NCBI GenBank assembly: GCA_018970605.1
Contig: JAGWWA010000001.1
Span: forward strand, 57,742-121,741
Source: Planctomycetota bacterium
Lineage (GTDB): Bacteria; Planctomycetota; Planctomycetia; Pirellulales; UBA1268
Direction of reading: 5' to 3'
DNA: 64,000 bases
The notes under the pieces are model-generated. The model saw nothing but the letters and a program-made list of their open reading frames with translations, was not told where the DNA came from and ran no database searches. Each line of letters opens with the position of its first letter. The first letter of the stretch is position 1. A program made the position numbers and the translations under genes. Shown in pieces: positions 5,294 through 60,368 of this stretch.

Positions 5294-5303
5294 TAGGGCT
5301 TGG

Positions 5304-5494
5304 ACGCCTCACACATGATCCTGAGGCGTTCCTGTGGCGGTATCACTCCGCCAGGAAGCCCCGAGCGGGAGCGAGGGGATCACGCGTGGCGGCGGCGAAC
5401 GACGCGTGCCGATCCGCGAAGCAGTTCCCGTCGCTTCCGCTCCGGGCTTTGAGGATTCCGTGGAACAACGCGCCACGATCAAGGGGAAACCGTA
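5304..5494 (+). repeat. palindromic MITE/REP-like element, family A, copy 1 (most diverged)
   Basis: Aligns along its length with 47241-47431 and with the reverse complement of 50991-51182. Shared core: ccaggaagccccgagcgggagcgaggggatcacgcg ... ttcccgtcgcttccgctccgggct. Confidence 0.7.
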
Positions 5495-5771
5495 TCAGAC
5501 GGATCCGTCTTTGTGTGGCTGCCGTACACACCCAACACCGTGAGGCCACATCTGTTTGGCTCGCCGATTGCTGTTTGGCACGCCGATTGCTGTCTGAACT
5601 GACGCCGCCGGGACTCGCCGCGACAGCCTGCGGCCCAGGTGGCTGTTTTGACGGCCCAAACACCATGGAGCCAGCACCGTGCACCTTCCACGATCTCCCC
5701 GTCGGCCGCATCAAAACGCAACGCGCGCCGCATTTTGCACCGGCCCGGAGCGTTTGGAGTGCCGGTCCCTG

Positions 5772-7799
5772 ATGGCAGCCGACTCCCACATGGCCATCGG
5801 GATGAATCTTGAAAACATCGTCGACTGGTCGCCTGCCTGGACCTTCACGGATGCGTTCAAGGCCTCGCGGCCCTGGATCGACCAGGCCTTCAACACGGCC
5901 ACGTGGGGGACGTCGTGGGACGACCCCGCCACGCCGCCCTTGGCCCTCGACGGCGATGGCAACGTCCTCCGACTGGCCACCTGGACGAACGCGGCGGGGC
6001 AGACAGTGCAGCAGCGAGCAGGCACGCTCATGTTCCGCGGCCTCGGGGGCGGATATGCCGCCGGCACCTACCGCGCCGAGTGGGACGGCGACGGCGTGGT
6101 GTCCTTCGGGTTCGACGCCCGCGTCATCGCCAGCGGCCGCACCGCAACGGGTCGCAGCTACGCCGACCTGCTCGTCACCCCCTCTGACGATGGCATCCTC
6201 ATGGTGATCGAATCCACGAATCCGACGAACCCAGCCCGCGCCTTCAACGTCTGGATGCCCGACTGGCAGGGGCAGCGTTTTGCGGGCCAGCAGTGGCAGC
6301 CCGGGGCCTCGTTCTCGCCGTTCCATCCACTCTTCCTCCAGCGGCTCGCCCCCTTCCACACGCTCCGTTTCATGGGGATGCAGGAGACCAACTCGTCCGA
6401 TATCCGCACCTGGTCGGATCGCCGCAATGCCGCCGACATCCGCCAAGGCTCCGGCCCGGAAGGCACCGCCAGCGAGCCGATCGTCAACGGAATTTCGGTC
6501 GAATACATGGTGCAACTCGCCAACGACCTCGACGCCGATCCGTGGTTCAACATGCCCTACCTCGCCGACGACACGTTCGTCCGCCGATTTGCGACCTACG
6601 TGCGAGATCACGTGGAGCCGGGGCGGAAGGTGTTCGTGGAGTGGGCCAACGAAGTCTGGAACTTCGGCTGGGGATTCGAGGCGTCGCACTGGATCGAGGC
6701 ACAGAAGCGGCTGCCTGAGAACGCCGGCCTCGATCCCGATCTCGCCCAGTGGCAGATCGCCGGCCGCGAGGCCAAACGAGACATGGACATCTGGTCGGAA
6801 GTGTTCGCGGGCCGCACGGATCGTCTCGTCCGCGTGGCTGCAGGCTGGGCGGCGGTGGACTGGGTGAGCGGGCAGATCGCGGAGGCGATGGGCGGCTCGT
6901 TCGATGCGATCGCGATCGCTCCCTACATCACGCCGACAGACGACCAACGGGCGGCCTACTCCGCAGGCACCACCGTCGATCGCGTGATCGCCGACACGCG
7001 AGCCAACGTGGCGACCAGCCTCGCGTGGACGGCCAACCACGAACGTCTGGCGCAGCAGTGGTCGGCACGGCTCGGGAGGCCGATCCAGCTGGTCGCCTAC
7101 GAAGGCGGCCCCCACCTCGACGGCCGCGGCGAGCCCTACCAGCAGGCCTTCTACTCGGCCACCAACGACCCGCGCATGGGCGACATCGAGCGCGACTATC
7201 TCCGGGGCCTCGACGCGGCGGGCATGGACCTGTTCGTAGACTTCCAGTTCACCGGCCAGGCCGGGGCCACTCCGTGGGGCGACTTCGCGAAGCTGCACCG
7301 GATGGACGAACCGCTCGCCACGGCCTACCGCTACGCCGCCGTGGTGGCCGCCGCCGACGGCTCGCTCTGGGCCCCGGCGCCGCCGCCCCCATCCATGAGC
7401 ATCGCCTCGGCGACCATCGGTGAGGGAAACACCGGTCGGAAACTCCTCGTGTTCACGCTCACGCTGTCGGCGGCATCCGTCACGCCCGTCACGGTTGCCT
7501 GGGGCACGGCCAATGGCACGGCCGTCGCCGGCCGCGACTACGTGGCAGGCCGTGGGACGGTCACCTTCAAGCCAGGCCAGACACGGCGGACGGTCAGCGT
7601 GTGGGTGATCGGCGACCGGCTTCGCGAGGGCAACGAGACCTTCTCGGTGAGCCTCACCGCACCGGTGAACGCCGTCCTCGACTCAGGCGGCTCACGGGCG
7701 ACCGGCACGATCATCGACGACGATGGCGGCCGCCGTGCCGCCTTCGCCGCGCTGGCGACCTCGGTGCCGGCGGGCGTCACGGGAAAGCGGGTGCGGTAG
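5772..7799 (+). CDS. putative TIM-barrel glycoside hydrolase-like protein with a C-terminal Calx-beta domain
   Basis: VEWANEVWN (NE acid/base-like motif of clan GH-A enzymes). The C-terminus GTANGTAVAGRDYVAGRGTVTFKPGQTRRTVSVWVIGDRLREGNETFSVSL is a clear Calx-beta repeat. The start is uncertain (5679, 5772 or 5790) and no obvious signal peptide is present. Confidence 0.6.
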   Translation: MAADSHMAIGMNLENIVDWSPAWTFTDAFKASRPWIDQAFNTATWGTSWDDPATPPLALDGDGNVLRLATWTNAAGQTVQQRAGTLMFRGLGGGYAAGTYRAEWDGDGVVSFGFDARVIASGRTATGRSYADLLVTPSDDGILMVIESTNPTNPARAFNVWMPDWQGQRFAGQQWQPGASFSPFHPLFLQRLAPFHTLRFMGMQETNSSDIRTWSDRRNAADIRQGSGPEGTASEPIVNGISVEYMVQLANDLDADPWFNMPYLADDTFVRRFATYVRDHVEPGRKVFVEWANEVWNFGWGFEASHWIEAQKRLPENAGLDPDLAQWQIAGREAKRDMDIWSEVFAGRTDRLVRVAAGWAAVDWVSGQIAEAMGGSFDAIAIAPYITPTDDQRAAYSAGTTVDRVIADTRANVATSLAWTANHERLAQQWSARLGRPIQLVAYEGGPHLDGRGEPYQQAFYSATNDPRMGDIERDYLRGLDAAGMDLFVDFQFTGQAGATPWGDFAKLHRMDEPLATAYRYAAVVAAADGSLWAPAPPPPSMSIASATIGEGNTGRKLLVFTLTLSAASVTPVTVAWGTANGTAVAGRDYVAGRGTVTFKPGQTRRTVSVWVIGDRLREGNETFSVSLTAPVNAVLDSGGSRATGTIIDDDGGRRAAFAALATSVPAGVTGKRVR

Positions 7800-7845
7800 C
7801 ACGTCGGCTTCTCCTGCGGCGGATGGCCGCGTAGACTCCGTCCCC

Positions 7846-11810: not shown

Positions 11811-12225
11811 CCCGCTCGCGGGGCGGCCAGAAGATATGGCCGACTCGCGCAACTCTCCTCCTCGATCCCAGCTCCCGCGCATGCGCGCAGGTGGCACACG
11901 GATCTGGAACACGCGACGAATCTAGGGCGTGCCCCTGATCGGTGTCAAACGCCGAAAATCGACCATCTCCCGCGGCCCCCCCAGCCTGCCGCGATTTCCC
12001 ACCCCACCGCCATGTCGCCTGCCCTTGACCCTCCGTCTCCGATTCGCCTATTCCCCGCTCGCCGCGGCAGTTTGTCGCCTGCCCGCGGCTCCGTCATCGA
12101 ACCGACGGAATCCATTGGAGAGGCCTGCACGATCGTGACGATCACGAAGCGGAACCCGGTCGCGCCGACCGCGCGACCGTGACTGCCACCATCCACATGC
12201 CAGGCCCGACGGAGCTCGCCCCATC

Positions 12226-13503
<1,278 letters not shown>

Positions 13504-13554
13504 GCGGGCCACGCGGCCGCGGGAAGCGGAACGCCGTCTGGCGTGCGGCATGCT

Positions 13555-13645
13555 CAGGAAGCGTGACGCCGTCAGGCGTACGGCGAAATCAACGCCGATC
13601 TCCACACCGGGCAGGCCCCCATCGCTCACGCGATTGGGCTTCCTG
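13555..13645 (+). repeat. 91-bp intergenic repeat, family C, copy 1
   Basis: Reverse complement matches 15057-15147, with about 14 mismatches in 91 by eye. The termini caggaagc ... gcttcctg form an 8-bp terminal inverted repeat. Confidence 0.7.
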
Positions 13646-13746
13646 AACCAGCAGCATGCCGGTGTGTCGCGTGTCGCCGCCACGAAGGCGGCAAGTCAGG
13701 CGCGGCGAACCTTGGCTTCGCCCCGCCTGACCCAAGCGGCCGGCCG

Positions 13747-13768
13747 TCGACGGGCCTCCGCCCGTCGA
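13747..13768. terminator. GC-rich hairpin in the convergent DegT/top6A intergenic region, a possible bidirectional terminator
   Basis: tcgacgggc-ctcc-gcccgtcga, a 9-bp perfect stem. There is no U-tract, so the function is uncertain. Confidence 0.3.
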
Positions 13769-13798
13769 GGCGGCAGGATGCCGGTGTTTCGCGTGTAG

Positions 13799-14938
13799 TC
13801 AGTCCAGCCAGTCGGCTTCGGCGATGCGCTCGGGCGTGTAGGTCTCGGTCACATAGCTGATGTCCTTCGAGATCAACGACTCGACTTCCAGCTTGAAGCC
13901 GTTGTCGAGCATGGTCTCGATCTCCTTCTGCCATGCCTTCTTGCCGGCAAACCAGGGGTAGGCGGCAATCTGCTTGGCCCGCTTGATGTCGGTGTCGTTG
14001 AGCTGGATCTGCACGCTCTGGCTGAGCTTGCACCGCTGGTAATCGCGTGAGCGGATGCCGAGGAAGCGGGCTTCGGGAATCGCCATGCGCTTCGACTCGT
14101 AGGCAAGATTGATCGAGCCCTGCTTGAGCACCGAGTAGATGTAGTAGCCCCAGGGATCGTTGTCGAGCAGGCAGTAGACCGGCAGCTTGAGCTCGTTGTG
14201 GAGCCGGTAGAGCATCCGTCGGACGCCCCGGGGCGGCTGGCCGCCGCCGTGCGTCAGCAGGCAGTTGTGCTTCCGCCAGAACTTGTCCTCGTTGAAACGC
14301 CGCCAGACCGTGTCCTTCTCGACGTGGAGGATGAACTTCGCGTCGCACGACTTGAACTTCACGATGTCGGCCTCGACGATCGACGGGATCGAGTAGCCGC
14401 CGGAGCCCATCCGGGAGCAGTCGATTTCGTCGCCCGAGTCGATCAGCGTGATCGGGCCGACCATGCCGCCGCGGTTGCTGGCGTAGACGTGGAGCTCCTC
14501 GCGGAGGCTCTCGAGCGTCACCTCGAGGTCTTCGATGATCGGGTCGCACTCCTCCTGGGTGGCAAATGTCTCCTCGCGCGTGCCCTCGATCGTGTGCTTG
14601 AGAAGGTAGTAGAGACCTCGGATGCTGGTGGTCTTCTGCTGGTCGATGAGCTGTTTGCAGCCGGTGGCCACCAGCAGCGTCTGCATGTAGCTCTTGGCCT
14701 GCGAGAGGTTGAAGAGTTGGCGGCGGTTGGTCTGGCCCCCCATCTCGATGATCTTCCGCGACTTGTTGAAGCGGACGTTCGAGAGGCTGCGCGTGGGAAT
14801 GTCGAGGTGCGGATCGCGCTTCTTCTCGGCGGCGGAGGCCACCTCGTCGGCGAGATCGACGATCAGCCGGAGCGTCTTCTGATCGATGACGGGCAGTTTG
14901 CCGGCAGCCTTCGGTGGGCGTTTCGACTTCGTGGCCAT
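13799..14938 (-). CDS. top6A: DNA topoisomerase VI subunit A / Spo11-like protein (5Y-CAP plus Toprim)
   Basis: IRGLYYLLKH (catalytic Tyr context RxxYY), ILHVEKDTVW (Toprim Glu), CLLDNDPWGYYIYSVLKQGS (DxD), GFKLEVESL C-terminal motif. ATG at 14938 (MATKSKRPPK). Confidence 0.85.
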   Translation of the reverse strand: MATKSKRPPKAAGKLPVIDQKTLRLIVDLADEVASAAEKKRDPHLDIPTRSLSNVRFNKSRKIIEMGGQTNRRQLFNLSQAKSYMQTLLVATGCKQLIDQQKTTSIRGLYYLLKHTIEGTREETFATQEECDPIIEDLEVTLESLREELHVYASNRGGMVGPITLIDSGDEIDCSRMGSGGYSIPSIVEADIVKFKSCDAKFILHVEKDTVWRRFNEDKFWRKHNCLLTHGGGQPPRGVRRMLYRLHNELKLPVYCLLDNDPWGYYIYSVLKQGSINLAYESKRMAIPEARFLGIRSRDYQRCKLSQSVQIQLNDTDIKRAKQIAAYPWFAGKKAWQKEIETMLDNGFKLEVESLISKDISYVTETYTPERIAEADWLD

Positions 14939-15056
14939 GTCGGATGCAATGAGGGCGGAGGAAGGAGCGAACAACGCCCGGAATCCTACCTGCAATCCCG
15001 GCGCCTCGCACACCGGCCGAAATCCATGCTCTCGTGCCCCGGAGACGCTTCCTACC

Positions 15057-15147
15057 CAGGAAGCCCAATCGCGTGAGCGATGGGGGCCGGACTGCCGAGG
15101 AGATCAACGCCGATTCTGCCGTACGCCTTACGGCGTTACGCTTCCTG
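15057..15147 (-). repeat. 91-bp intergenic repeat, family C, copy 2 (inverted relative to copy 1)
   Basis: caggaagcccaatcgcgtgagcgatgggggcc ... ccgtacgccttacggcgttacgcttcctg. It is preceded by the small hairpin gcttcct-accc-aggaagc. Confidence 0.7.
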
Positions 15148-15186
15148 CAGCTGTGCCGAATCGCTTCCCCGGAGGCGCTTCCTGCT

Positions 15187-15218
15187 CAGGAAGCCCAGCC
15201 GCGTGAGCGATGGGGGCC
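15187..15218 (-). repeat. partial third copy of the family C arm
   Basis: caggaagcccagccgcgtgagcgatgggggcc repeats 15057-15088 and abuts the stop codon of the upstream gene (15219-15221). Confidence 0.6.
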
Positions 15219-16076
15219 CTACGCCTCTTCGCGGAGCATCGCGGGCGGCTCGTCGAGTTCCTCGAGTTCCGGCGGGAGCTGGAGCTGCCGCATCGTCTCG
15301 TCCGTCTTCCGCATGCCCTCGGCCACTTCGTCCACCCGCTGGGCGATGTCGGTGACGTCGCGCTTGGCCACGGAACTCTCCGCCAGGGCGGCGATCTTGG
15401 CCTCCAGCCGCTCGATCTCGGCGGCCACGAGGTCGAGCTTCCGCCGCGCCTCGTCGATGTTGTCGAGCCGTTCGCGACTCGTCTTGAGATGGTCTTCGAG
15501 GGTGCCCCGCATCGCCGCCGACCCTGGGTCGTCCTTCGGCATCTTCGCCAGCCGTCGCTCCAGATCGGCGATTCGCGCCCGGATCGCGCCGTCGTCGGTC
15601 CGGTCGAGGAAGTCGGAGAGCGTGTTGGCGCCCCAGATCATCCGCAGGTAGCCCCAGAGCAGACGATCGAGCGACTCGAGCGCCGTCTTGTCGGGTCCGC
15701 TCCCATCCGGCCCGCGGATGCTGCCCCCGAGTTCCACGAGCTTGAGGCAATGATCGCGGAGCTGGTCGAATCGCTTCAGCAGGGCCGGCGGAAGGTTCTT
15801 GCGGATTCGCTCATAGGCTTCGCGGGCTCCCGCCGCCTCCGTCGCCCGGCGAGACTTCGCGTCCTGCGCCTCGACGGCACTGCGGAAGCGGTCGTTGGCG
15901 AGCATGCTGGCGAGATAATACACCTCGCCGGCCGCCACCAGCGGCAGGATGATCCCGGGAAAGCCGCTGATGAAGGCCGCCGCCACGCCGCCGCCGAAGA
16001 GGAGCAGATTCCACCTCGTGGTGAATGCGGTCTTCAGGTAGGCACCGACGCGACTGAACACGATCACCTCGCTCAC
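15219..16076 (-). CDS. hypothetical membrane protein: two N-terminal TM helices plus a long coiled-coil region
   Basis: The GTG start overlaps the ABC ATPase stop (GTGA). Hydrophobic stretches WNLLLFGGGVAAAFI and GFPGIILPLVAAGEVYYLASML. The C-terminal heptad-like RKLDLVAAEIERLEAKIAALAESS. No family recognised. Confidence 0.6.
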   Translation of the reverse strand: MSEVIVFSRVGAYLKTAFTTRWNLLLFGGGVAAAFISGFPGIILPLVAAGEVYYLASMLANDRFRSAVEAQDAKSRRATEAAGAREAYERIRKNLPPALLKRFDQLRDHCLKLVELGGSIRGPDGSGPDKTALESLDRLLWGYLRMIWGANTLSDFLDRTDDGAIRARIADLERRLAKMPKDDPGSAAMRGTLEDHLKTSRERLDNIDEARRKLDLVAAEIERLEAKIAALAESSVAKRDVTDIAQRVDEVAEGMRKTDETMRQLQLPPELEELDEPPAMLREEA

Positions 16077-16954
16077 GTGGGCCGCTTGGCGGCCGCCTCG
16101 ACCTGCTCGATCCGGGCGTGCAGGGCGTTGACCTGCTCGTGAAACCACGGCTCCGATTGCACCTCGCGGGCGGGCGCCGAGGCCGCCGGCATCCGGATCT
16201 CGTCCACGATCCTGCCCGGCGTCGTCGCCATCACGAACACGCGATCTCCAAGATACACCGCCTCCTCGACCGAGTGGGTCACGAAGAGCACCGTCGCCTC
16301 GACCTCCCGCCAGAGCTTCACCAGCAGGTCCTGCATGTCGAGGCGGGTCGCCGGATCGAGGGCCCCGAAAGGCTCGTCCATGAGGATCACCCGGGGCCGG
16401 AGGATCAGCGTGCGGGCGATCGCCACCCGCTGCCGCATGCCGCCCGAGAGCTCGTGCGGATACTTCGCGGCGTCCCGCCGCGGATCGAGCCCCACCTTCG
16501 CGATCCACTCGAGCCCCTCGGCCTCGCGCTCCCGCCGGGCAACTCCGCGGCACTCGAGACCGAAGACCACGTTGTCGAGCACGGTGCGGTTGTCGAAGCT
16601 CGTGTAGTCCTGAAACACCATCCCGCGGTCGGCTCCGGGACCGACCACCGGCCGGCCGAGCACCGTCACCCTGCCGCTCGTCGGCGGATGCTGCGGCTCG
16701 AGCCCGGCCACGAGCCTGAGCACCGTGCTCTTGCCGCAGCCGCTCGGCCCCAGAAACGACGAGATCTCGCCATGATCCACGATGTCGGGAATCGTGAAGC
16801 TCACGGACGAGATCGCCACGTATTCCCTGGGCGAGCCCTCGCCGTAGATCTTGGTGACATGGCGAAACTCCACCGCAGGCGGGCGTTCGGGTGCGGGCGG
16901 GGCAGCGGGGGCCGGCGTCGCAGCGGGGGGCGTGTCGGGGGTGGCGTCGCTCAT
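16073..16954 (-). CDS. ABC transporter ATP-binding protein (NitT/TauT nitrate/sulfonate/bicarbonate-type)
   Basis: Walker A GPSGCGKST, Q-loop, signature LSGGMRQRVAIAR, Walker B ILMDEPFGALD, H-loop VTHS. The ATG overlaps the permease stop (ATGA). Confidence 0.9.
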   Translation of the reverse strand: MSDATPDTPPAATPAPAAPPAPERPPAVEFRHVTKIYGEGSPREYVAISSVSFTIPDIVDHGEISSFLGPSGCGKSTVLRLVAGLEPQHPPTSGRVTVLGRPVVGPGADRGMVFQDYTSFDNRTVLDNVVFGLECRGVARREREAEGLEWIAKVGLDPRRDAAKYPHELSGGMRQRVAIARTLILRPRVILMDEPFGALDPATRLDMQDLLVKLWREVEATVLFVTHSVEEAVYLGDRVFVMATTPGRIVDEIRMPAASAPAREVQSEPWFHEQVNALHARIEQVEAAAKRPT

Positions 16955-22807: not shown

Positions 22808-22836
22808 TTGATACCGCTGCCGGGGGACGCCGTCAA
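22808..22836 (-). promoter_or_regulatory. candidate sigma70-type promoter for the PspA-AAA+ cluster
   Basis: On the minus strand it reads TTGACG - 17 nt - TATCAA. The -35 element overlaps the stop codon of the upstream giant gene. Confidence 0.4.
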
Positions 22837-25800
22837 TCGGCCCGTCGATTCCGACGGCGGCTGATCACGAGGCCCGCCGCCGTCGTCACCAGCGTTCCGA
22901 CCATCAGCTGTGCCGACGGCTCGGGCACGGCGGCCACCTCCTCCCCGAGACCTGGGGGCGCGTTGTACGGCCCCGCATCGAAGAGCCCGGTGGAAAGGAA
23001 GTCGGCCGCGTCGAGGATGTCCACCAGACCGTCGTACCCGAAGTCGCCCTCGATCCAGGAAGCCGGCTGTCCGCTGTCAAACTTTCCTCCGGCGAGGAAG
23101 TTGGCGGCGTCGAGGATGTCGACGTTCCAATCGAGGTTGGTGTCGCCCGCGGCGGCGAAGGCGAAGGTCACCGATCCGTCGCCGTTGTCGAGCCAGCCGA
23201 CGGTTCGCGGAATGCTCTGGGCAATGTCGGTGGCAGCCTGGCTCGACGTGATCCCGCTCGTGCCGCTCCATGAGCCGTCGCCGCGTCCGGCAACCAGCGC
23301 CGTCAGCATGTCGACCGTCGATAGCCCCGCGGACACGGTCATCAGTCCACTGCCGACATCGGTCATGCCACCCGCATTGGGCTTCAGCCCGCCGACCGTC
23401 GTCTGCAGGCCCGCCGCCAACGCGAGCGTGCCGCCGGCGAGGGGCACGATGCTGCTCGAGCCGAGCGCGGAGCCGTTCGCCAGTTGGAGCACGCCACCCC
23501 GCACGGTCGTGCTGCCGCTGAGCGAGTTGGCCGCTGCCAGCACCATCCGGCCGGCGCCGGTCTTGCGGAAGCCGTTGGTGCCTCCGATCCAGCCCGAGAC
23601 GACGAGATCGTCGCTGGCCGTACCATCGGCCACGTCCACGGCGAAGCCGTCGGTGCCGAACCGCACGTCCTGCGCCGTGATCCGCGACGTGGTCGCCCCG
23701 CCGGCGACCGAGAGCGCATTGCCCGATCCCGAGAACACATAACTCCCGTAGGTGGCGCTCGCGGCGCCGCTGGCGAGCGTGCCGCCGGCGAGGGTCACGT
23801 TGGTGGCGTGGGTCGTCACATTGTCGGCGGTCGTAAGAACGCCCCCGGCCTCGATCACGTAGGGCCGGGTACCGTCGGCGTAGCCGTGGAGCGCATTGTC
23901 GGCCGCGACGACGATGGTGCCGCCCGCCGTCGCCCGCACCACGCCCGATGTGCCCGCGACTGTGCCGAACTGCGACTGCGCGACCGCCAGTTCCAGCGTC
24001 CCCGACGCCACCGTCAGGTCGCCGGCAAGATCGCTCGTGCCCGTCAGCCGCAGCGTGCCGGCGGACCGCTTCGTCACCCAGAGCCCGCCGGTGAGACTCC
24101 CTGAGTAGGCATTGCTGCTCCCCGACGGGATCGCCAGTGTCAGCATCGCCGAACCGCTCGTGGAGGTGATGCGGCTGTACGACGTCGCCCCGGTGAGGTT
24201 GTTGGTCACGCCGGCGAGTTGCTGGTCGAATCCATTCAGGTCGAGGATCGCCGTCGTGTTTCCGTTGCCGGTGTCGCCAATCCGCATCGTGGCGCCGATC
24301 GGGATCACGTTGGCCCTCCCCAGCCGCACGGTGCCGGCCGTCAATCGCAGCTCGTCGTAGCTGCTGCCGGAACCCGACAGCACGACGATGCCGTCGCGCA
24401 CCGTCACGAATCGATCGGCGGGGAGCGCCGCCGTGTGCGCGATCGGGCCCGCGATCTCCAGCGTGCCGCCCGAACTGGCGCTGAAGTGACCGCCTGCCTG
24501 CACCGAACCGCTGATCGTGATCGGCCCGGTCACCGTGGCCGTGCCGCTCGAAATCGCCGCCTGCACGGCCCCGACGCCAACCGCACCACCCCCCCGGATC
24601 GTGATCGGGGTGGCGACCGACACGCCTGCCGCATCCAGCGTGAACTGGTTTCCCGTGCCCTCGTAGATCGTGAGCGACGACGTGGATGGGACGGCCGCCG
24701 AGGTCGTCACCGCCAGTCGGCCGCCGAGCACCGTGATCGGACCGGTGAACGAGTTGGAGGCGGACAACGTCAGCTTCGCAGACCCGGCCTTCGTGAGCGA
24801 TACGGCCGCCGACCCGTTGTCGCCGATGCCGGCGGCGATCGTCAGGCCGCCGGAGTTCGCCTGGTTCACGAGCAGTTCGGCCGCCTTCGTACCATCGCCG
24901 GCGGTGAGGCCCACCACGTCGGTGAATCCGCTGATCGTCACCGCCGCCGCCGTGGCCGAGGCGATCGAAAGCAGGCCGCCGCTGCTGAGAGTCAGCTTGC
25001 TGGAGCCAAGATCGAGCGTCTGGCCGGCCGCGTTGGCCGCGATCCGCAGGCTGTTGGTGGTCAGCGGCGCAAGCATCGTCTCGCTCGTGCTCGTCTCCGT
25101 GTTGTTCGTGTCACTGCCGCCGAAGATGTTGAGCAGGCCGTAGCTCAGCGCGTCGAGCCCGGTCAGCCCGCCGGGATTCGTGCCGTCGCCTCCCGAGACC
25201 GCCCAGGTCGTACCCCCTACGGTCAGCCAGGGCCCCACGATTCCATTCGTGTTCGCCGTCGTCGTCGTGACCTGGCCGGACGAGGGCACGGTGAGCGTGG
25301 CGACCGATGGCCCGGTTCGAGTCAGGCCGCCCAGATTGAGCGTCATGCTGCCGGCGGAGCCGCTCGCTGCCACGATCGTCGAGACGCCCGGCAACACGCT
25401 GGTGGTGGCGAAGGTCTGCGTGTTCGACTTGCTCGCGCCCCCCGCCGCCCGCACGCCACCGCCGCCGAGCCGCAGCGCTGCCGTCGGAACCACGATGTCG
25501 TCGTTGACCGCGGATGTCCCGAAATCGAGGGTCACGGTTCCCTGAGACACGGCCACCGCACCAACCGTCGTCAGGTTCGACAGCGCGAGTGTGCCCGACC
25601 CGACCTTCGTGATCGATGCCGCAGTGAGTTGGCCGGCGTACGCGGTCGAACTGCCGCTCCGGCCCACGGAGAGATCGTTCGTGCCGGCGTTGAGGTCGCG
25701 GGATCCCTTGAGCCCGCCGAGCACATAGGCCCCGGTTCCGGTGGCCGTGAACCCGAGACCGCCGGTGTCGCCGGCGGCGAGATTCACCACCGAGTTTTGC

Positions 25801-28145
25801 AGGGCCTCACGATCCCGCAGCGCCAGCGTGCCCTCCACCACGCGCGTGTCGCCGGTGAAGCTGCCGGCGGCGGCGAGCGTCAGGGTGCCGGCGCCGAGTT
25901 TGGTCAACGTGCCCCCGGCGCTCGCCAGCGGCGACGCGAACGTCACCGCCTGTCCGTTGGTGTCGATCCTCACCGCCTGGTTGGCAGCCGACGAGAATCG
26001 TGGGGAATAGTCGGTGGTGTTGGCAGCCGAATACTGGAGCGTGCCGCCGCCGAACGAGATCGTGCCGCTGCCTCCGAGGGCTCCGGCCGCCGCGGCCTGC
26101 AGCACGCCGCCGTTCAACGCCACCGCGCCCAGGGTGTTGGTCGCCGCCAGCACTACCGAGCCCGACCCGACGACCGTCAGCGGCAGCCCCCCGACGAGGC
26201 CGGAGGATACCGTGAGGATGCCGTCGCCGCCGCCGAGCCGATACCCGGCCGAGCCCGAGGTCACCGTGCCGGAGAGCGTCGCCGCCCCCAGAGCGCCGAT
26301 GGACAGTCCCGGATACGACGCCAGCGACAGGTTGCTCGAGTCATTCGCCGTCGCGAGGATCGATCCAGCCGATGCCGTCGCCACCCGGCCGCTCGCCAGC
26401 CAGCCGCCGACCGACGCATAGGCACCGTCGGCGACAAGCGCGGCGCCCGCGCGGACATCCACGCTCCCGGCGGTCGGCAGCGACGCGGGCGTGGTGAAAC
26501 GGATCACACCTCCCGCCACCACGGTCCCGCCCGAGTAGCCGTTGCTCCCAGAGAGGCTCAGGGTGCCGCTGCCGAGTTTTACGAGGCCGACCGCCCCACC
26601 CCCGACACCGGTCGTGTCGAGCACGGAGTCGGCGAGCGTGAAGCTGCCGGCCGCCGAGGTGTCGAAGCCGATCCGCGCGCCGGCGAGCAGCCCATTGCCG
26701 TTCACGCTCCGATCGACGGCCGCGATCACGGCCGAGATCGCGGCGGCATCGAACCCCGACGTGCCGCCCACCACGAAGGCGGCCGTCGCCCCCGATCCGG
26801 TGACGAGCCGCGCCGGAGTCCAGGCGGCGACCGTCCCGCCGACGAGCGTGGCCGGCGTGGTGAAGAGCAGCGTCCCCGCCGACACCGTCGTCGGCCCCTG
26901 AAACGTGTTGGCGGCGGTGAGGCTCACGAGGCCGGTGCCGACCTTCCTGAGCGACCCGACCCCAGAGAGCGGCACCGTGAGCGAGGTCGTGCCGGAGGTT
27001 CCCACGTTGAGCGCCACCCCCGCACCCGACGTGCTCGTGAGCACCACCGCGTTGGAGCCGGTCAGCCCGCCGATGTTCACCTCGCTCAGCGCCCCGAACG
27101 TGAGCGTGCCCGTCGGCGATGTGCCCGACTGTGTGTTGAAGGTGGTGCCGGCCAACGCGTACTGGTTGCCGAGCACGAGCCGCCCGGCGGTCACCGTCGT
27201 CGTGCCGCTGAACGTGTTGCTGCCGGAGAGCAGAAGCGTCCCAGTGCCCGACTTCGTGAAGCCGTTGCCGCCGATCACCTGGGCCGAGATCTCGAGGTCG
27301 ACCCCGGAGGCGTCGCCCGTCCCGTTCACCGTGAACGTCCGCGTGGAGTTGAGGTTGATCTGGCCGCTGCCCGTCGTCGACAGGATCGTGGACTTGGCCG
27401 TGCCGCCCACGGTGACCGCGGAGTTGTTCTGAAACACCAGCGATGCACCGGACGAGCCTCCGGATCGCGCGTCGATCGTCGCCCCGTTGAGCGTCATCGT
27501 CGTGCGGTAGTTGTTGGTCTTGTCGAGCTGCAGCGTGGTGCCCGCGCCGAGCGTCAGCGCGGTGCTGTTGTCGGAGTTGGCCGTGCCGTCGAGGCCGTTG
27601 ACGCCCGAGAAGATCAGCCGCGTGCCCGCCGTCGAGACCGTGATCGCTCCCGGGTAGGGTTTGTTGGCCGACGTGAAGTTCACGGTGCCGCCGCCTTGGA
27701 TGCCGAGACCAAGACCGGCGCCGTTGGTGCTGGTGATCGTCAGGGACGTGCTGGGGCTGACCACGATCGCCCGCGCGGGAGAGAGCGTGCCGTTGTTCGC
27801 CCAGGCGACCACGCCGGAGAGCGTGAACGAACCCGACGTCACGTTGATCCGGCAGAACTGCGGGATCCCACTCGCCGTGAGCGTGCCGCTCGTGCCCTGG
27901 AGATACGCCTGGCTCGTCGTCGAACTCACGAAGGATCCCAGCGTTCCGCTGCTGGAACCGACGAACCAGTTGCTGCTGGTGGTGTTCCATGTGCCCGACC
28001 CGCCGAGCGATGTGCCGGTGGCGGTCCAGTAGTAGTCGACGGCCATCGTCTCACGAACCGGCACCGCGACGCTCGCCACGGCCATCACCGCCGCCGCGAT
28101 CCGCCCGACCAGGGAACCAGACACACCGTGACCCGTGCGATGCAT
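22833..28145 (-). CDS. giant surface protein: signal peptide, autotransporter-associated beta-strand (PATR) repeats, dockerin-like repeats, PEP-CTERM anchor (1770 aa)
   Basis: N-terminus MHRTGHGVSGSLVGRIAAAVMAVASVAV. Dozens of LxKxGxGTLxLxGxNxYxGxTxVxxGxL units. DTNLDWNVDILDAANFLAGG ... GDFGYDGLVDILDAADF. C-terminus VPEPSAQLMVGTLVTTAAGLVISRRRNRR. Confidence 0.85.
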   Translation of the reverse strand: MHRTGHGVSGSLVGRIAAAVMAVASVAVPVRETMAVDYYWTATGTSLGGSGTWNTTSSNWFVGSSSGTLGSFVSSTTSQAYLQGTSGTLTASGIPQFCRINVTSGSFTLSGVVAWANNGTLSPARAIVVSPSTSLTITSTNGAGLGLGIQGGGTVNFTSANKPYPGAITVSTAGTRLIFSGVNGLDGTANSDNSTALTLGAGTTLQLDKTNNYRTTMTLNGATIDARSGGSSGASLVFQNNSAVTVGGTAKSTILSTTGSGQINLNSTRTFTVNGTGDASGVDLEISAQVIGGNGFTKSGTGTLLLSGSNTFSGTTTVTAGRLVLGNQYALAGTTFNTQSGTSPTGTLTFGALSEVNIGGLTGSNAVVLTSTSGAGVALNVGTSGTTSLTVPLSGVGSLRKVGTGLVSLTAANTFQGPTTVSAGTLLFTTPATLVGGTVAAWTPARLVTGSGATAAFVVGGTSGFDAAAISAVIAAVDRSVNGNGLLAGARIGFDTSAAGSFTLADSVLDTTGVGGGAVGLVKLGSGTLSLSGSNGYSGGTVVAGGVIRFTTPASLPTAGSVDVRAGAALVADGAYASVGGWLASGRVATASAGSILATANDSSNLSLASYPGLSIGALGAATLSGTVTSGSAGYRLGGGDGILTVSSGLVGGLPLTVVGSGSVVLAATNTLGAVALNGGVLQAAAAGALGGSGTISFGGGTLQYSAANTTDYSPRFSSAANQAVRIDTNGQAVTFASPLASAGGTLTKLGAGTLTLAAAGSFTGDTRVVEGTLALRDREALQNSVVNLAAGDTGGLGFTATGTGAYVLGGLKGSRDLNAGTNDLSVGRSGSSTAYAGQLTAASITKVGSGTLALSNLTTVGAVAVSQGTVTLDFGTSAVNDDIVVPTAALRLGGGGVRAAGGASKSNTQTFATTSVLPGVSTIVAASGSAGSMTLNLGGLTRTGPSVATLTVPSSGQVTTTTANTNGIVGPWLTVGGTTWAVSGGDGTNPGGLTGLDALSYGLLNIFGGSDTNNTETSTSETMLAPLTTNSLRIAANAAGQTLDLGSSKLTLSSGGLLSIASATAAAVTISGFTDVVGLTAGDGTKAAELLVNQANSGGLTIAAGIGDNGSAAVSLTKAGSAKLTLSASNSFTGPITVLGGRLAVTTSAAVPSTSSLTIYEGTGNQFTLDAAGVSVATPITIRGGGAVGVGAVQAAISSGTATVTGPITISGSVQAGGHFSASSGGTLEIAGPIAHTAALPADRFVTVRDGIVVLSGSGSSYDELRLTAGTVRLGRANVIPIGATMRIGDTGNGNTTAILDLNGFDQQLAGVTNNLTGATSYSRITSTSGSAMLTLAIPSGSSNAYSGSLTGGLWVTKRSAGTLRLTGTSDLAGDLTVASGTLELAVAQSQFGTVAGTSGVVRATAGGTIVVAADNALHGYADGTRPYVIEAGGVLTTADNVTTHATNVTLAGGTLASGAASATYGSYVFSGSGNALSVAGGATTSRITAQDVRFGTDGFAVDVADGTASDDLVVSGWIGGTNGFRKTGAGRMVLAAANSLSGSTTVRGGVLQLANGSALGSSSIVPLAGGTLALAAGLQTTVGGLKPNAGGMTDVGSGLMTVSAGLSTVDMLTALVAGRGDGSWSGTSGITSSQAATDIAQSIPRTVGWLDNGDGSVTFAFAAAGDTNLDWNVDILDAANFLAGGKFDSGQPASWIEGDFGYDGLVDILDAADFLSTGLFDAGPYNAPPGLGEEVAAVPEPSAQLMVGTLVTTAAGLVISRRRNRRAD

Positions 28146-28251
28146 GAAAGCCTCCCGGCTCGCGAGCGACGCGGCCACGCGGCATGTCGCTCGATGCCGC
28201 CGCGTCCACCGCTCAAACCCCCCGGAGAATACGGGTCGCCATCGAAAGGGA

Positions 28252-28293
28252 GTATTAGCCACCCGGCTAATCCCCGTCGTCACGATGGGCCTG
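28252..28293 (-). promoter_or_regulatory. conserved upstream block containing the 16-bp palindrome TTAGCC-N4-GGCTAA (28255-28270)
   Basis: The minus strand reads caggcccatcgtgacgacggggaTTAGCCgggtGGCTAAtac. The same block occurs at 36149-36188. Exactly 109 nt separate the palindrome from the ATG at 28145. Confidence 0.5.
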
Positions 28294-28297
28294 CACA

Positions 28298-29638
28298 ATG
28301 CGCCTGGTCGCGTTTTGCCGCCGCCCTCGACCTGCGGAATCAACCTTCGTGCCTCGCCATGCCGCTCGATTCTTTCCGTGCGCCCAGGCCGTCCTCCTGG
28401 CGGTGATCTTCCCGTGGTCGCCGCTCGCCGACGCGGTCGTCCCTCCGGTTGCGCACGGGCCACGAACTGCTCGGCTGGCGACCACGCCGATCAAGGGCAT
28501 CTGCGGCAACGCTCGCCTCGCCGACGCGGTCGCCTGCGGGGCCAACGTGATTCGCACCTACGCAGCGCCGACCGTCGCGGAACTCGACCGGTACGAGGCG
28601 CTCGGGCTTCGCGTGATCGTCGGCCATTGGATGCCCCACGAGGGCACCAACATCGGCAAGGAAGGCTGGCCCTGGAAACACTCCTACGCAGCAGCCGCCG
28701 AGACGATGGATCGCGAGTTCGCCGCCGTCGTCGATCGAATCGGCGACCATCCCGCCATCGTGATGTGGAGCCTCGGAAACGAAGTGCGGCTCGAACCGGC
28801 GTATCTCCGCCAGGCCGACAGGCTGTCTCGCATCGTGCACGAGCGGCACCCGGCGATGCCCACGAGCCTCACGATGGTCAATGCGCCGGCAGCGTCGATC
28901 GCGCTGATCACGGAGCATGCCACCGACATCGACGTGCTCGGCGTCAACAGTTACGGGCACGGTGCCGTCGGCGGCGCGATCGCCACCCTGCAGGAGCAGT
29001 GGCGGAAGCCCTTTTATTTCTCCGAGTTCGGACCCACCGGGCCGTGGTGGGGGCCGCAGGCCTCGTGGGGGCCACGATTCGAGGCGGGAGCGTCGGCCAA
29101 AGCCGCCGATCTCGGCAAGGCATGGGAGCGGATCGCCGCGGCCGAGGGCTGCCTGGGAGGCTGCGCATTCCTCTGGGGGTGCTGGCCTCGGGAGCGGATC
29201 TCGTACTTCAGCATGCTGCTCACCCCCGATCCCTGGTGCCCGACTCAACTCGATGCCGACTGCCGCTTCACGCCGCTCGCCGACGTCCTCGCGATCGCAT
29301 GGACAGGATCGTGTCAGCGGCGCCCTGCGCCACGACTTGAACGGCTCGAGATCGACGGACTGACGAATCAGGACGTCGTCGTGGAGGCGGGAGCGACGAT
29401 GCGGGCGACCGCGGAGCGAGGCGGGCATGATCTCGGACCAGTCCGCTTCCGCTGGTGGATCGCCCGCGAGACAGCGGAAGGCTTTCGCCCCGTCGCTGGA
29501 CCATGCGACACACTGGAACCGTCCGCCACCCTCGTCGCCCCCGCGGAGCCGGGCGCGGCATTCATCCTCTTCTGCCTCGCCCTCGACGACGGCACCGGCG
29601 CCTGCGCCACCACGCTGCCCTTCAAGACCGCCGACTGA
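28298..29638 (+). CDS. putative glycoside hydrolase (clan GH-A TIM barrel, GH2/GH5-like) with a C-terminal beta-sandwich-like region
   Basis: IVMWSLGNEV (acid/base NE) and FYFSEFGP (nucleophile-like E), with a signal-like AVLLAVIFPWSPLADA. The start is uncertain: ATG at 28298 or an in-frame GTG about 50 nt downstream. Confidence 0.6.
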   Translation: MRLVAFCRRPRPAESTFVPRHAARFFPCAQAVLLAVIFPWSPLADAVVPPVAHGPRTARLATTPIKGICGNARLADAVACGANVIRTYAAPTVAELDRYEALGLRVIVGHWMPHEGTNIGKEGWPWKHSYAAAAETMDREFAAVVDRIGDHPAIVMWSLGNEVRLEPAYLRQADRLSRIVHERHPAMPTSLTMVNAPAASIALITEHATDIDVLGVNSYGHGAVGGAIATLQEQWRKPFYFSEFGPTGPWWGPQASWGPRFEAGASAKAADLGKAWERIAAAEGCLGGCAFLWGCWPRERISYFSMLLTPDPWCPTQLDADCRFTPLADVLAIAWTGSCQRRPAPRLERLEIDGLTNQDVVVEAGATMRATAERGGHDLGPVRFRWWIARETAEGFRPVAGPCDTLEPSATLVAPAEPGAAFILFCLALDDGTGACATTLPFKTAD

Positions 29639-35438: not shown

Positions 35439-35445
35439 GCCGCAC

Positions 35446-36105
35446 CTAGCTCGGCTCGCGGCGCGAGGCTCCGGCCTTGAGCAGTCCGAGATCGAACGCC
35501 CGCGCCACCGCCTGCGTGCGATCACCGACACCGAGCTTCTCGATCACCCCGGCGACGTGGGCCTTGGCGGTGTGCGTGGAGATGCCGAGCAGTTTGGCGA
35601 TCTCGTTGTTGGTAAAGCCCTCGCGGAGCAATCCCACCACCTCGAGTTCGCGGGGCGTGAGCAGGGCCGCCGGTCCACTCGCCGTCGCCGCGGGCCGGGT
35701 CTTCACCACACCCCTCACCGGCCGCCCCCCCCTGTGAACCTCCCGGATCGCCTCGAAGAGTTCGCGGTGCCCGACGTGCTTGGTGACGTACCCGCTGGCG
35801 CCGGCATCCAGCGACCGCTGGGCATCCTCCTGCGACTCCGCCGAGGTGAGCATGAGCACGCTCGCCGCCGGCGACGCGCGGCGGATGCGGTGGAGGGTGG
35901 CGATCCCGTCGATTCCGTGCATGGCGAGATCCAGGAGCGTGACGTCGGGCTGGTGCTGCTGCCAGAGGCTATACGCGGCCTCCCCGTCGTCGGCCTGCGC
36001 CACCACCGAAAAATCCGGCTCCGAGCCCAGGAGATTGGCCAGTCCGGCCCGCATGACGGGGTGGTCATCCACGAGAAGCAAGCGAATTTTGCGAAGCGGG
36101 GTCAT
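35446..36105 (-). CDS. response regulator, NarL/FixJ (LuxR-type HTH) family
   Basis: IRLLLVDDHPVMRAGL, the phospho-acceptor context VTLLDLAMHGIDG, LTPRELEVVGLLREGFTNNEIAKLLGISTHTAKAHV. It ends 7 nt before the start of the giant gene at 35438. Confidence 0.9.
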   Translation of the reverse strand: MTPLRKIRLLLVDDHPVMRAGLANLLGSEPDFSVVAQADDGEAAYSLWQQHQPDVTLLDLAMHGIDGIATLHRIRRASPAASVLMLTSAESQEDAQRSLDAGASGYVTKHVGHRELFEAIREVHRGGRPVRGVVKTRPAATASGPAALLTPRELEVVGLLREGFTNNEIAKLLGISTHTAKAHVAGVIEKLGVGDRTQAVARAFDLGLLKAGASRREPS

Positions 36106-36148: not shown

Positions 36149-36188
36149 CAGGCCCATGACGACAGCCACTTAGCCGGATGGCTAATAC
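36149..36188 (+). promoter_or_regulatory. conserved upstream block containing the 16-bp palindrome TTAGCC-N4-GGCTAA (36170-36185)
   Basis: caggcccatgacgacagccacTTAGCCggatGGCTAAtac. There are 109 nt from the palindrome to the ATG at 36295. It lies in the divergent region shared with the response-regulator operon. Confidence 0.5.
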
Positions 36189-36294
36189 CGCCGACCGGAC
36201 CGGGAATCTATACCTGCTTTGCGGTTCAATGAGTCGGGGGTGGTTCGCCCGAGCGTGGGCTGCATCGTTTCCGGGGATCATGTTTCCGGGGGTC

Positions 36295-39487: not shown

Positions 39488-39543
39488 TCGGGCCGCGACA
39501 GCGCTCGACGGCTCCCGTGACGGTCACCGGGGTTCGTAGGGCC

Positions 39544-41789: not shown

Positions 41790-41864
41790 GGTGGCTAACG
41801 GGACTCGAACCCGCGACCCTCGGTACCACAAACCGATGCTCTAACCAACTGAGCTATAGCCACC
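41790..41864 (-). tRNA. tRNA-His (anticodon GTG) with a genome-encoded G-1; no encoded CCA
   Basis: Manual fold: G-1 plus acceptor GTGGCTA/TAGCCAC, D arm GCTC..GAGC, anticodon stem TCGGT/ACCGA with loop TTGTGGT, T arm GCGGG-TTCGAGT-CCCGT, discriminator C73 pairing with G-1. Confidence 0.9.
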
Positions 41865-50959: not shown

Positions 50960-50990
50960 TACAGTCCCGCCAGGAAGCCGAAGGCCGTCA

Positions 50991-51182: not shown

Positions 51183-51230
51183 CAAGGCCTCGGGCGCGGT
51201 CGAGATGAGGCCGAGTCTGTTCTGGCAGCA

Positions 51231-60179: not shown

Positions 60180-60256
60180 GGCACTTTCGTAGCACCGGTT
60201 TTCAACCTCAGTGTTCCCGCTCGCGTGGCAGCGTGGGAAACGCTGTCTCCACCAGG

Positions 60257-60351: not shown

Positions 60352-60368
60352 TTTGGAAGCGATCGCCT

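What the first reader, a model, noticed from the sequence alone, without database searches (positions are those of the whole stretch)
13555..15218. Complete but orphan Topo VI A / Spo11-like gene bracketed by inverted 91-bp repeats, with no subunit B nearby
Seen:
- The 379-aa protein has all hallmark motifs of Top6A/Spo11: RGLYY catalytic Tyr context, Toprim VEKD and DNDPWG, and the C-terminal KLEVESL.
- No GHKL/Bergerat ATPase (Top6B) gene is present anywhere in the 64 kb.
- The gene is the only CDS between two inverted copies of a 91-bp repeat (13555-13645 and 15057-15147, about 85 percent identical by eye), with a third partial copy at 15187-15218.
- A 19-nt direct repeat, atgccggtgtNtcgcgtgt (13656-13674 and 13778-13796), ends 2 nt from the stop codon.

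Established: Topo VI is an A2B2 enzyme, is rare in bacteria, and its A and B genes are usually adjacent.

Inference, three possibilities:
- Top6B is encoded elsewhere.
- This is a stand-alone DNA-cleaving Spo11-like enzyme with a different partner.
- The gene arrived as a repeat-bounded cassette.
Basis: partly seen in the sequence, partly recalled or inferred. Interest (0 to 1): 0.65.

Follow-up and report, generated by a model that had tools for sequence, protein, structure and literature searches.

The report
Flipped Topo VI A-subunit gene
This is an ordinary, fully intact topoisomerase VI A-subunit gene whose B-subunit partner is very probably encoded elsewhere in the genome; the inverted repeats around it mark a place where the single gene has been turned around in situ, something that happened at least three times in this group of freshwater planctomycetes.

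Summary
The 379-aa gene (13799-14938, minus strand) is a complete Top6A, bracketed by 91-nt inverted repeats, and there is no Top6B in the 64 kb.

It is very probably not an orphan. In related Pirellulales, top6B sits directly upstream of top6A. In the window's clade (45 related loci) that operon is split. Unlinked, full-length Top6B genes form one clade in the same tree position as the split Top6A clade. They occur on separate contigs in the same metagenome assemblies as clade Top6A. The window's own genome could not be searched.

It is not an acquired cassette either. The gene sits between the same convergent neighbours (DegT-like gene, X280/ABC operon) in at least 45 species.

The new result is that block 13651-15035 (gene, promoter-like region, 3' structured unit) is inverted relative to the sister genome L008 and most relatives. 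Both breakpoints fall at the repeat arms. Orientation changed at least 3 times in the clade (bootstrap 100/100) but is fixed within the four species checked.

The repeats belong to a lineage-specific REP/MITE-like family. Recombination between them is the most likely cause of the flip. Modest interest: split bacterial Topo VI plus a clear repeat-associated single-gene inversion.

The parts
13799..14938 (-). top6A: complete DNA topoisomerase VI subunit A, 379 aa
   Evidence: Pfam and NCBIfam hits. Best solved relatives are 2zbk_A (E=1.8e-74, query 39-378) and 2q2e_A. It is 86-98% identical to Top6A of many Pirellulales assemblies.
14939..15035 (-). 5' region that moves with the gene. It holds a conserved GGTAGGAT box (14983-14990) about 44 nt upstream of the ATG, and GTGCG (15007-15011) about 18 nt further up. 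Promoter function is inferred.
   Evidence: It aligns in reverse orientation to the region upstream of Top6A in relatives. The boxes are invariant in both A-type and B-type genomes. The simple sigma-70 scan found nothing.
13651..13798 (-). 3' structured 122-nt unit directly after the stop codon.
   Evidence: Fold z=-5.1 with three hairpins. It is found only 3' of Top6A in close relatives, at 1 to 2.6 tandem copies. It inverts together with the gene.
13651..15035 (.). Inverted block: the whole segment whose orientation is reversed relative to flanks that stay collinear
   Evidence: blastn: 13651-15035 aligns reversed to L001-L007 at 85-89% identity, while 11901-13503 and 15219-16200 align forward. 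Against sister genome L008 the flank is collinear up to 13523 and the block 13784-15020 is reversed.
13555..13645 (-). Left arm of the inverted repeat: a 91-nt REP/MITE-like element with its head facing the gene
   Evidence: It folds on itself through the termini CAGGAAGC...GCTTCCTG (z=-3.8). It lies inside the left breakpoint interval 13524-13650.
15057..15147 (+). Right arm of the inverted repeat: a 91-nt element with its head facing the gene
   Evidence: Fold z=-2.1. It lies inside the right breakpoint interval 15036-15218.
15167..15218 (+). Partial third copy (20-nt tail-like fragment plus 32-nt head). It ends at the stop codon of the X280 gene. A similar 20-nt tail-like fragment precedes the right arm at 15037-15056.
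   Evidence: 52-nt direct repeat D2, 90% identical; sequence.
12226..13503 (+). Left neighbour: DegT/DnrJ/EryC1-family aminotransferase gene, collinear with relatives
   Evidence: Synteny and Pfam annotation in relatives.
15219..16061 (-). Right neighbour: conserved 280-aa protein of unknown family (X280), last gene of an ABC-transporter gene string and convergent with DegT
   Evidence: Synteny; no Pfam family.

Best explanation
The gene encodes the DNA-cleaving A subunit of a canonical A2B2 topoisomerase VI in a freshwater Pirellulales (Planctomycetota) lineage.

Shown: other Pirellulales have a top6B-top6A operon. In the ancestor of the window's clade the operon was split. top6A now lies between a DegT-like gene and a convergent X280/ABC-transporter gene string.

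Shown at clade level, and inferred for this genome: top6B lies at a separate conserved locus (TPR protein, two small ORFs, top6B).

Shown: the two 91-nt inverted repeats are copies of a short, hairpin-forming, lineage-specific REP/MITE-like repeat, and one copy sits in each spacer flanking top6A. The 1.4-kb block between them is inverted relative to the sister genome and most relatives. That block holds top6A, its promoter-like region and its 3' structured unit.

Inferred: the flip arose by homologous recombination between the two inverted copies, or in one step during intramolecular replicative transposition of the element. It was tolerated because the gene carries its own control region. The neighbours are convergent, so either orientation leaves top6A tandem to one neighbour and convergent with the other.

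Shown: the same single-gene flip happened at least three times in the clade. It is a fixed evolutionary difference between species, not an active switch.
For: Identity.

Ancestral operon: Top6B (Pfam transducer 175 bits) lies directly upstream of Top6A in about 38 of 42 outgroup loci. It is absent from all 45 clade loci and from the window.

The partner exists. A GC3-biased pattern scan recovered Top6B genes with no Top6A for up to 8 kb downstream. They form one long-stem clade sister to L053, exactly as the split Top6A clade does. They are 751-765 aa with intact N, G1 and G2 boxes. One cluster has 179 members. They have their own conserved neighbourhood without Top6A. Top6B P0332 and Top6A P0011 lie on different contigs of the same assemblies, 3300025606 and 3300025578. 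The B-binding N-terminus is 86% conserved in the clade (role from PMC7671362).

Inversion. Geometry: the ancestral DegT-top6A spacer of L008 is split within a 26-nt interval. Its first 25 nt stay by DegT, 31 nt from the outer end of the left arm. Its last 82 nt travel with the gene and end 36 nt from the inner end of the right arm.

Only the window has inverted repeats in these spacers, and sister genome L008 lacks them.

Recurrence: with bootstraps 100/100.

Fixed within species.

Repeat family.

Own promoter-like boxes.
Against: Top6B could not be looked for in the window's own genome. The link is by clade, congruent trees and co-occurrence in two assemblies, not by one closed genome.

The other B-orientation lineages show no flanking inverted repeats, so repeat-mediated recombination is documented only here.

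The arms are only 85% identical, with a 32-nt perfect head. That is short for RecA-dependent exchange unless the arms were more alike at the time.

I saw no clean target-site duplications by eye.

The window's orientation rests on one assembly.
Confidence: 0.8

Rival explanations
1. The inverted repeats are bystanders. The flip arose by some other route, such as illegitimate recombination or replication-associated template switching, and REP-like elements accumulated in the spacers later.
For: Three other B-orientation lineages have no flanking inverted repeats. These spacers collect repeats in any case: direct repeats flank Top6A in L011, L015, L020 and L021. The arms are 15% diverged.
Against: Both arms lie inside both breakpoint intervals and within 5-36 nt of the ends of the rearranged homology. 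Two independent later insertions would have had to land at both junctions in opposite orientation. Sister genome L008 is uninverted and has no arms.
Confidence: 0.12
2. Stand-alone Spo11-like or Mini-A-like nuclease that works without Top6B, possibly with another partner.
For: There is no Top6B within 10 kb in 45 loci or within the 64-kb window. Top6A is unusually conserved in the clade, at 83-98%.
Against: Unlinked canonical Top6B genes exist with a matching phylogeny and in the same assemblies. The N-terminal B-binding part that Mini-A and Topo VIII lack is present and constrained (PMC7671362). The T2BI box is of the Topo VI type, KLEVESL, not WELDAL or RVELNAM (PMC7671362).
Confidence: 0.03
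3. Assembly artefact: the segment between two inverted repeats was placed in the wrong orientation by the assembler.
For: Segments flanked by inverted repeats are a classic source of orientation errors. Contigs of relatives end near Top6A far more often than expected, 18 of 38 against 7.1.
Against: The longest identical run between the arms is 32 nt and the centres differ at 14 positions, so ordinary k-mers and reads span them unambiguously. The same orientation exists in other species without any repeats, on many independent contigs.
Confidence: 0.04
4. Programmed invertible element (phase variation) that switches top6A expression through the 91-nt repeats.
For: Inverted repeats bracket one complete gene. 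Orientation has changed repeatedly in evolution. Assemblies break in the flanking spacers.
Against: Orientation is uniform within each of the four species sampled on 8-24 contigs. No recombinase gene is among the conserved neighbours. The promoter-like boxes move with the gene, so a flip would not obviously switch it. The arms are diverged. The tandem 123-nt units explain breaks downstream.
Confidence: 0.04
5. Horizontally acquired, repeat-bounded mobile cassette carrying top6A.
For: The repeats have terminal inverted repeats and look MITE-like. Topo VI is patchy in bacteria (PMC2647321, PMC8837201).
Against: The gene is at the same locus in at least 45 species, and its tree is congruent with the Tex+DegT tree. 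The repeats are absent from every relative. GC3 is typical of the clade.
Confidence: 0.01

Closest known systems
Topoisomerase VI (Top6A2-Top6B2) of archaea and some bacteria; solved examples are Sulfolobus shibatae 2ZBK and Methanosarcina mazei 2Q2E
   Same: Full domain set: N-terminal B-binding part, 5Y-CAP with catalytic Tyr, all-beta domain, and Toprim with E and DxD. It passes the NCBIfam equivalog cutoff. It aligns to 2zbk_A over residues 39-378. A canonical Top6B with GHKL boxes and transducer exists in the clade.
   Different: The A and B genes are unlinked in this clade, while the nearest relatives keep a B-A operon. Activity has not been tested.
Mini-A and Topo VIII (type IIB relatives on mobile elements; PMC7671362)
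   Same: They share the 5Y-CAP and Toprim cleavage core. Mini-A likewise has no neighbouring B-like gene.
   Different: [quoted passage not shown] This protein has the N-terminal part and a Topo VI-type KLEVESL box, and it is chromosomal and vertically inherited.
REP/BIME and MITE-like intergenic repeats (for example E. coli REP, Neisseria Correia elements) as substrates for rearrangement (from general knowledge)
   Same: Short (91 nt), terminal inverted repeats, internal hairpins, intergenic, several related copies in the window, lineage-specific, and clustered in partial tandem arrays.
   Different: No Rfam family matches. Genome-wide copy number is unknown. No target-site duplication or cognate transposase (RAYT/IS) was identified.
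Invertons / invertible promoters and gene segments (fimS, hin/hix, Bacteroides invertons) (from general knowledge)
   Same: Inverted repeats flank a DNA segment that exists in both orientations among related genomes.
   Different: A whole housekeeping gene flips together with its own promoter-like region. There is no adjacent recombinase. Orientation is fixed within species. The arms are 85% identical rather than conserved recombinase sites.

Membership tests
Top6A / Spo11 (Topo VI subunit A) | 5Y-CAP domain with a catalytic tyrosine in an R..[YF]Y context | tested here: met
   PF04406 at 55 bits against a cutoff of 26. RGLYY at 107-111, with R and the final Y invariant in 88 sequences.
Top6A / Spo11 (Topo VI subunit A) | Toprim domain with the metal-binding E and DxD | tested here: met
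   PF21180 at 200 bits, full length 1-170 of 170. VEKD at 206 and DNDPWG at 259, invariant or nearly so.
Top6A / Spo11 (Topo VI subunit A) | [quoted passage not shown] | tested here: met
   Aligns to NF003333 model positions 4-367 from residue 15 and to 2zbk_A from residue 39. Residues 21-82 are 86% identical within the split clade.
Top6A / Spo11 (Topo VI subunit A) | Curated whole-protein score above the family cutoff | tested here: met
   NF003333 equivalog: 558.7 bits against a cutoff of 465.
Topo VI holoenzyme (A2B2) | A Top6B (GHKL ATPase plus transducer) encoded in the same genome | tested here: inconclusive
   Not in the 64-kb window, and the rest of the source genome is not available. 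At clade level the feature is met: unlinked Top6B with congruent phylogeny, found in the same assemblies.
Topo VI holoenzyme (A2B2) | ATP-dependent strand passage (relaxation or decatenation) | not testable with these tools
   Needs purified A and B subunits.
Mini-A / Topo VIII | [quoted passage not shown] | tested here: not met
   The N-terminal part is present. The box is KLEVESL. The gene is chromosomal and syntenic in at least 45 species.
REP / MITE-like intergenic repeat | Short, non-coding, with terminal inverted repeats and a stable self-fold | tested here: met
   91 nt with termini CAGGAAGC / GCTTCCTG. DNA-fold z = -2.1 and -3.8. The copies are intergenic.
REP / MITE-like intergenic repeat | Many dispersed copies in the genome | tested here: inconclusive
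   Three copies at this locus. At least three related head motifs elsewhere in the window, at 5352, 47289 and 60253, within a related ~190-nt family. Two head copies in another spacer of L008. The whole-genome count is unavailable.
REP / MITE-like intergenic repeat | Target-site duplications, or a cognate transposase (RAYT/IS) in the genome | not tested
   I inspected the flanks only by eye and saw no clean duplication. No transposase search of the genome was possible.
Programmed inverton (phase-variable invertible DNA) | Both orientations coexist within one population, with a dedicated recombinase | tested here: not met
   Orientation is uniform in four species (P0018 and P0011 are A; P0045 and P0104 are B). 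No recombinase is among the conserved neighbours. This was not testable for the window's own species, which is absent from the databases: the best protein hit is 96%.

The most novel reading that the evidence does not exclude
The repeated flipping of top6A is not neutral. After the B-A operon was split, orientation between the two convergent neighbours sets how much read-through or transcription-generated supercoiling reaches the top6A promoter. Selection has then repeatedly re-set A-subunit dosage by inversion. In the window's species the 91-nt inverted repeats may still allow reversible flipping. That would be a topoisomerase gene whose expression is tuned by its own local DNA topology through a structural switch.
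Probability: 0.07. Interest if true: 0.55.

Novelty: new member of a known kind. Interest (0 to 1): 0.3.

Why it matters
It removes a tempting false lead: there is no bacterial stand-alone Spo11 here. It also shows how the lead can be tested without the whole genome, through congruent A and B trees plus co-occurrence in the same assemblies.

It documents that a large, well-sampled freshwater Pirellulales clade runs Topo VI from two unlinked genes, both highly conserved. That bears on how A:B stoichiometry is kept without operon coupling.

It also gives a clean natural example of a single-gene inversion caught with its flanking repeats still in place, at a locus that has flipped at least three times. 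Finally, it flags the spacers around top6A as assembly-break hotspots in MAGs of this group.

Tried and rejected
- An exact look-up of the window's Top6A found nothing. The source species is not in the protein collection; the best hit is 96%.
- A strict Bergerat-motif regex over all loci found nothing because it was too strict.
- Two large protein searches with Top6B (L053 alone, then a 28-sequence profile) listed only B-A-linked lineages. The clade's Top6B is 72% identical to L053, which is just at the listing cutoff.
- Three candidates picked by contig count or source (P0229, P0275, P0331) all turned out to be linked to Top6A.
- Matching 'longest contig' lengths between Top6A and Top6B hit lists gave no match.
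- A search for the 91-nt element next to Top6A in 87 loci found none outside the window, so conserved recombination sites were rejected.
- Rfam has no family for the repeats or for the 3' unit; the only hit was Chloroflexi-1 at 20.7 bits against a gathering score of 80.
- The sigma-70 and terminator consensus scans were uninformative.
- Covariation in the 3' unit is insufficient: one compensatory pair.
- Within-species orientation polymorphism was looked for in four species and not found.
- Target-site duplications around the arms were checked by eye only. I saw no convincing pattern under either the two-insertions-plus-recombination model or the one-step transposition model.
Full report
**1.

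The minus-strand ORF 13799-14938 encodes a 379-aa protein. It carries the three Pfam domains of Top6A/Spo11: TP6A_N, the all-beta domain and a full-length Toprim domain. It exceeds the curated cutoff of an NCBIfam equivalog model, 558.7 against 465 bits. Its best solved relatives are the A subunits of Sulfolobus shibatae and Methanosarcina mazei Topo VI.

The 91-nt inverted repeat (13555-13645 / 15057-15147, 85%), the partial third copy and the direct repeat next to the stop codon are all present. The 30-nt core of the repeat occurs three times in the window against none in 100 shuffles.

No Top6B is encoded in the 64 kb. Probes from two outgroup Pirellulales genomes and from the window's own clade gave only noise, best E=0.95. 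The one GHKL-fold protein in the window is a HisKA_3 histidine kinase at 39115-41724.

**2. Who carries this gene**

The protein is 86-96% identical to at least 120 database clusters from Planctomycetota/Pirellulales metagenomes. A scan of species-representative genomes returned 80 loci. The closest is the MAG Pirellulales bacterium EUL_329 (L008), at 98% amino-acid identity.

In 45 loci the gene lies in one conserved neighbourhood: Tex, a DegT-family aminotransferase, top6A, a 280-aa protein of unknown family (X280), then an ABC transporter string. DegT and X280 are convergent, and top6A sits between them. This excludes arrival of the gene as a cassette in the window's lineage. The Top6A tree and the Tex+DegT tree agree on the main groupings.

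**3. The gene is very probably not an orphan**

In the more distant Pirellulales and Thermoguttaceae loci (72-79% identity), a 650-750-aa ORF directly precedes top6A. In L067 it has the Topo VI-B transducer (175 bits) and HATPase_c domains. tblastn finds this Top6B immediately upstream of top6A in about 38 of 42 such loci, and in none of the 45 loci of the DegT-synteny clade. That clade is monophyletic, sits on a long stem, and is sister to L046/L047/L053. So the ancestral B-A operon was split once at its base.

Two large protein searches failed to show the clade's own Top6B, and three candidates proved to be linked. I then exploited the clade's high GC3 (0.86-0.97 in its close members against a mean of 0.80 elsewhere). 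A GC3-restricted DNA pattern for an invariant Top6B peptide matched 1 of 44 known linked genes, while its relaxed form matched all 44. Run on the metagenome collection, it returned 120 loci.

Nine of these carry a Pirellulales-type Top6B with no Top6A in the downstream sequence held (2 nt to 6.9 kb); five further partial genes look the same. The nine form a single long-stem clade sister to L053.

The proteins are full length (751-765 aa) with intact N, G1 and G2 boxes. One 90%-identity cluster has 179 members, and individual sequences are seen on 86 and 44 contigs. That matches the heavy sampling of the clade's Top6A. These genes have a conserved neighbourhood of their own, with no Top6A within 10 kb.

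Top6B P0332 and Top6A P0011 lie on different contigs of the same two assemblies:
- 3300025606: Ga0207954_1006732 (Top6B) and Ga0207954_1000521 (Top6A).
- 3300025578: Ga0208864_1000688 (Top6B) and Ga0208864_1000610 (Top6A).

[quoted passage not shown] In the split clade this part is retained and is 86% identical. Its conservation relative to the other domains is the same as in linked genomes.

I could not search the window's own genome, so for this genome the partner is inferred, at roughly 0.9.

**4. What the inverted repeats mark**

Comparison with relatives shows that window 13651-15035 aligns in reverse orientation at 85-89% identity. The flanks 11901-13503 and 15219-16200 align forward.

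Against the sister genome L008, collinearity runs to 13523, and 13784-15020 is reversed. L008's 133-nt DegT-top6A spacer is split within a 26-nt interval. Its first 25 nt stay beside DegT, 31 nt from the outer end of the left arm. Its last 82 nt travel with the gene and end 36 nt from the inner end of the right arm.

At the other end, the homology of the inverted block to the relatives' 3' unit ends 5 nt from the inner end of the left arm.

This geometry is what recombination between two inverted copies, one in each spacer, would leave. A one-step inversion during intramolecular replicative transposition would leave the same geometry.

No relative has inverted repeats in these spacers, and L008 has neither arm.

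The arms differ at 14 of 91 positions, all central, leaving a perfect 32-nt head. That divergence (0.15) is similar to the third-codon-position divergence between the window and L008 (0.18). This fits arms that arose at about the time of, or after, that split.

Because the arms share only 32 identical bases in a row, an orientation error by the assembler is unlikely.

**5. The flip is recurrent but fixed**

Orientation relative to DegT and X280 is of the window's type (B) in L023, L026, L027, L037 and L040-L044, and of the other type (A) elsewhere. Four groupings each have 100/100 bootstrap support:
- window with L008;
- the otherwise all-A clade that contains both;
- L023 inside another A clade;
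- a basal all-B clade.

At least three changes of state are therefore needed.

In L023 and L027 the flipped homology is again just the gene: the CDS plus at most 81 nt.

Within species the orientation is uniform. P0018 and P0011 are A, and P0045 and P0104 are B, on 8 to 24 contigs each. So there is no evidence for a phase-variation switch.

An invariant GGTAGGAT box about 44 nt upstream of the start codon, and a GTGCG about 18 nt further up, are present in both A and B genomes. The gene therefore takes its promoter-like region with it. The neighbours are convergent, so either orientation leaves top6A tandem to one neighbour and convergent with the other. This probably explains why the flip is tolerated (inference).

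**6. What the repeats are**

Each 91-nt arm begins with CAGGAAGC and ends with GCTTCCTG. Each folds on itself with internal hairpins (z = -2.1 and -3.8). Neither matches an Rfam family.

The head motif CAGGAAGCCC..GAGCGA.GGGG also heads a related ~190-nt hairpin repeat, present at several other intergenic sites in the window. Two head copies lie in a different spacer of L008. The motif is absent from the other ~230 loci examined.

This is the profile of a lineage-specific REP/MITE-like family. Genome-wide copy number, target duplications and a transposase remain untested.

That unit occurs only just 3' of top6A in the closest species. It is present at 1 to 2.6 perfect tandem copies, even among contigs that encode an identical Top6A.

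Such repeats explain why 18 of 38 MAG contigs end within 700 nt of top6A, against 7.1 expected (P about 1e-5).

**7. Verdict**

This is a canonical Topo VI A subunit in a clade that encodes A and B at separate loci. The gene was turned around in place, and the repeat copies are still visible at both breakpoints. It is a new member of known kinds, both for bacterial Topo VI and for repeat-associated inversion. Interest is modest.

The literature puts Topo VI in 'some bacteria' (PMC8837201), and in 2009 it was known from only three bacterial genomes (PMC2647321). Its near-universal, highly conserved presence across Pirellulales is worth noting but was not the question here.

Noticed in passing
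window 13651-13798; L006:8349-8663; L007:8581-8831: A 122/123-nt three-hairpin unit sits directly 3' of the top6A stop codon, and only there. Copy number varies from 1 to 2.6 (100% identical copies in L006), even among contigs encoding the identical Top6A protein. Only one compensatory base pair was seen, so whether it is an RNA element or terminator is open.
   Followed up: partly
L005:9825-9923, L241:3319-3420 and equivalents; window about 15000-15035: A divergently oriented 32-33-aa ORF was called upstream of top6A in L005-L007 and L241-L250; its region is conserved at the DNA level in other relatives too. It co-inverts with top6A in the B-type genomes L023, L027 and L241. It is truncated or absent in the window and in L008.
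   Followed up: partly
L008-L045 (contig ends): 18 of 38 MAG contigs end within 700 nt of top6A against 7.1 expected (P about 1e-5). The flanking spacers are assembly-break hotspots in this clade.
   Followed up: yes
window 5295-5495, 47241-47431, 50990-51190; shorter copies at 60239-60369 and 2582-2615: A ~190-nt long-hairpin intergenic repeat family (87-94% identical copies). It shares the head CAGGAAGCCC..GAGCGA.GGGG with the 91-nt element.
   Followed up: partly
window 5294-7802: About 2.5 kb is present in the window but absent from sister genome L008. It begins exactly at one of the ~190-nt repeats and encodes a 706-aa protein with a Calx-beta domain. It may be a repeat-associated insertion or deletion.
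   Followed up: no
window 13585-13599 and 15100-15114: Inside the otherwise inverted arms, a central 6-mer (AACGCC against GGCGTT) within ATC......GAT is flipped, so the core reads as a direct repeat. Four transitions would also explain it.
   Followed up: no
window 22833-28463, 29622-35531, 36178-37827; inverted repeat 27588-28082 / 36355-36849: Two giant (1876 and 1969 aa) PATR-repeat proteins, one with a glycosyl-hydrolase core, plus a smaller paralogue on the other strand. This accounts for the many internal DNA repeats and for a 495-nt inverted repeat at 73% identity.
   Followed up: no
window 39115-41724: A HisKA_3 + HATPase_c histidine kinase is the only GHKL-fold protein in the window. 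It is not a Top6B.
   Followed up: yes
L046, L063, L081 (Top6A without Top6B within 5-10 kb); L185 (Top6B without Top6A within 8 kb): The top6B-top6A linkage appears to have been broken independently in other Pirellulales/Thermoguttaceae lineages as well.
   Followed up: no
L234-L237 (P0104 lineage): On the side of top6A away from DegT, the X280/ABC-transporter block is replaced by a 107-aa ORF, a 261-aa ORF and an MgsA-like AAA gene. This is a further rearrangement at the same junction.
   Followed up: no
window 41790-41863 (-) and 63878-63951 (+): Two tRNA genes are the only Rfam matches above gathering score in the window.
   Followed up: no
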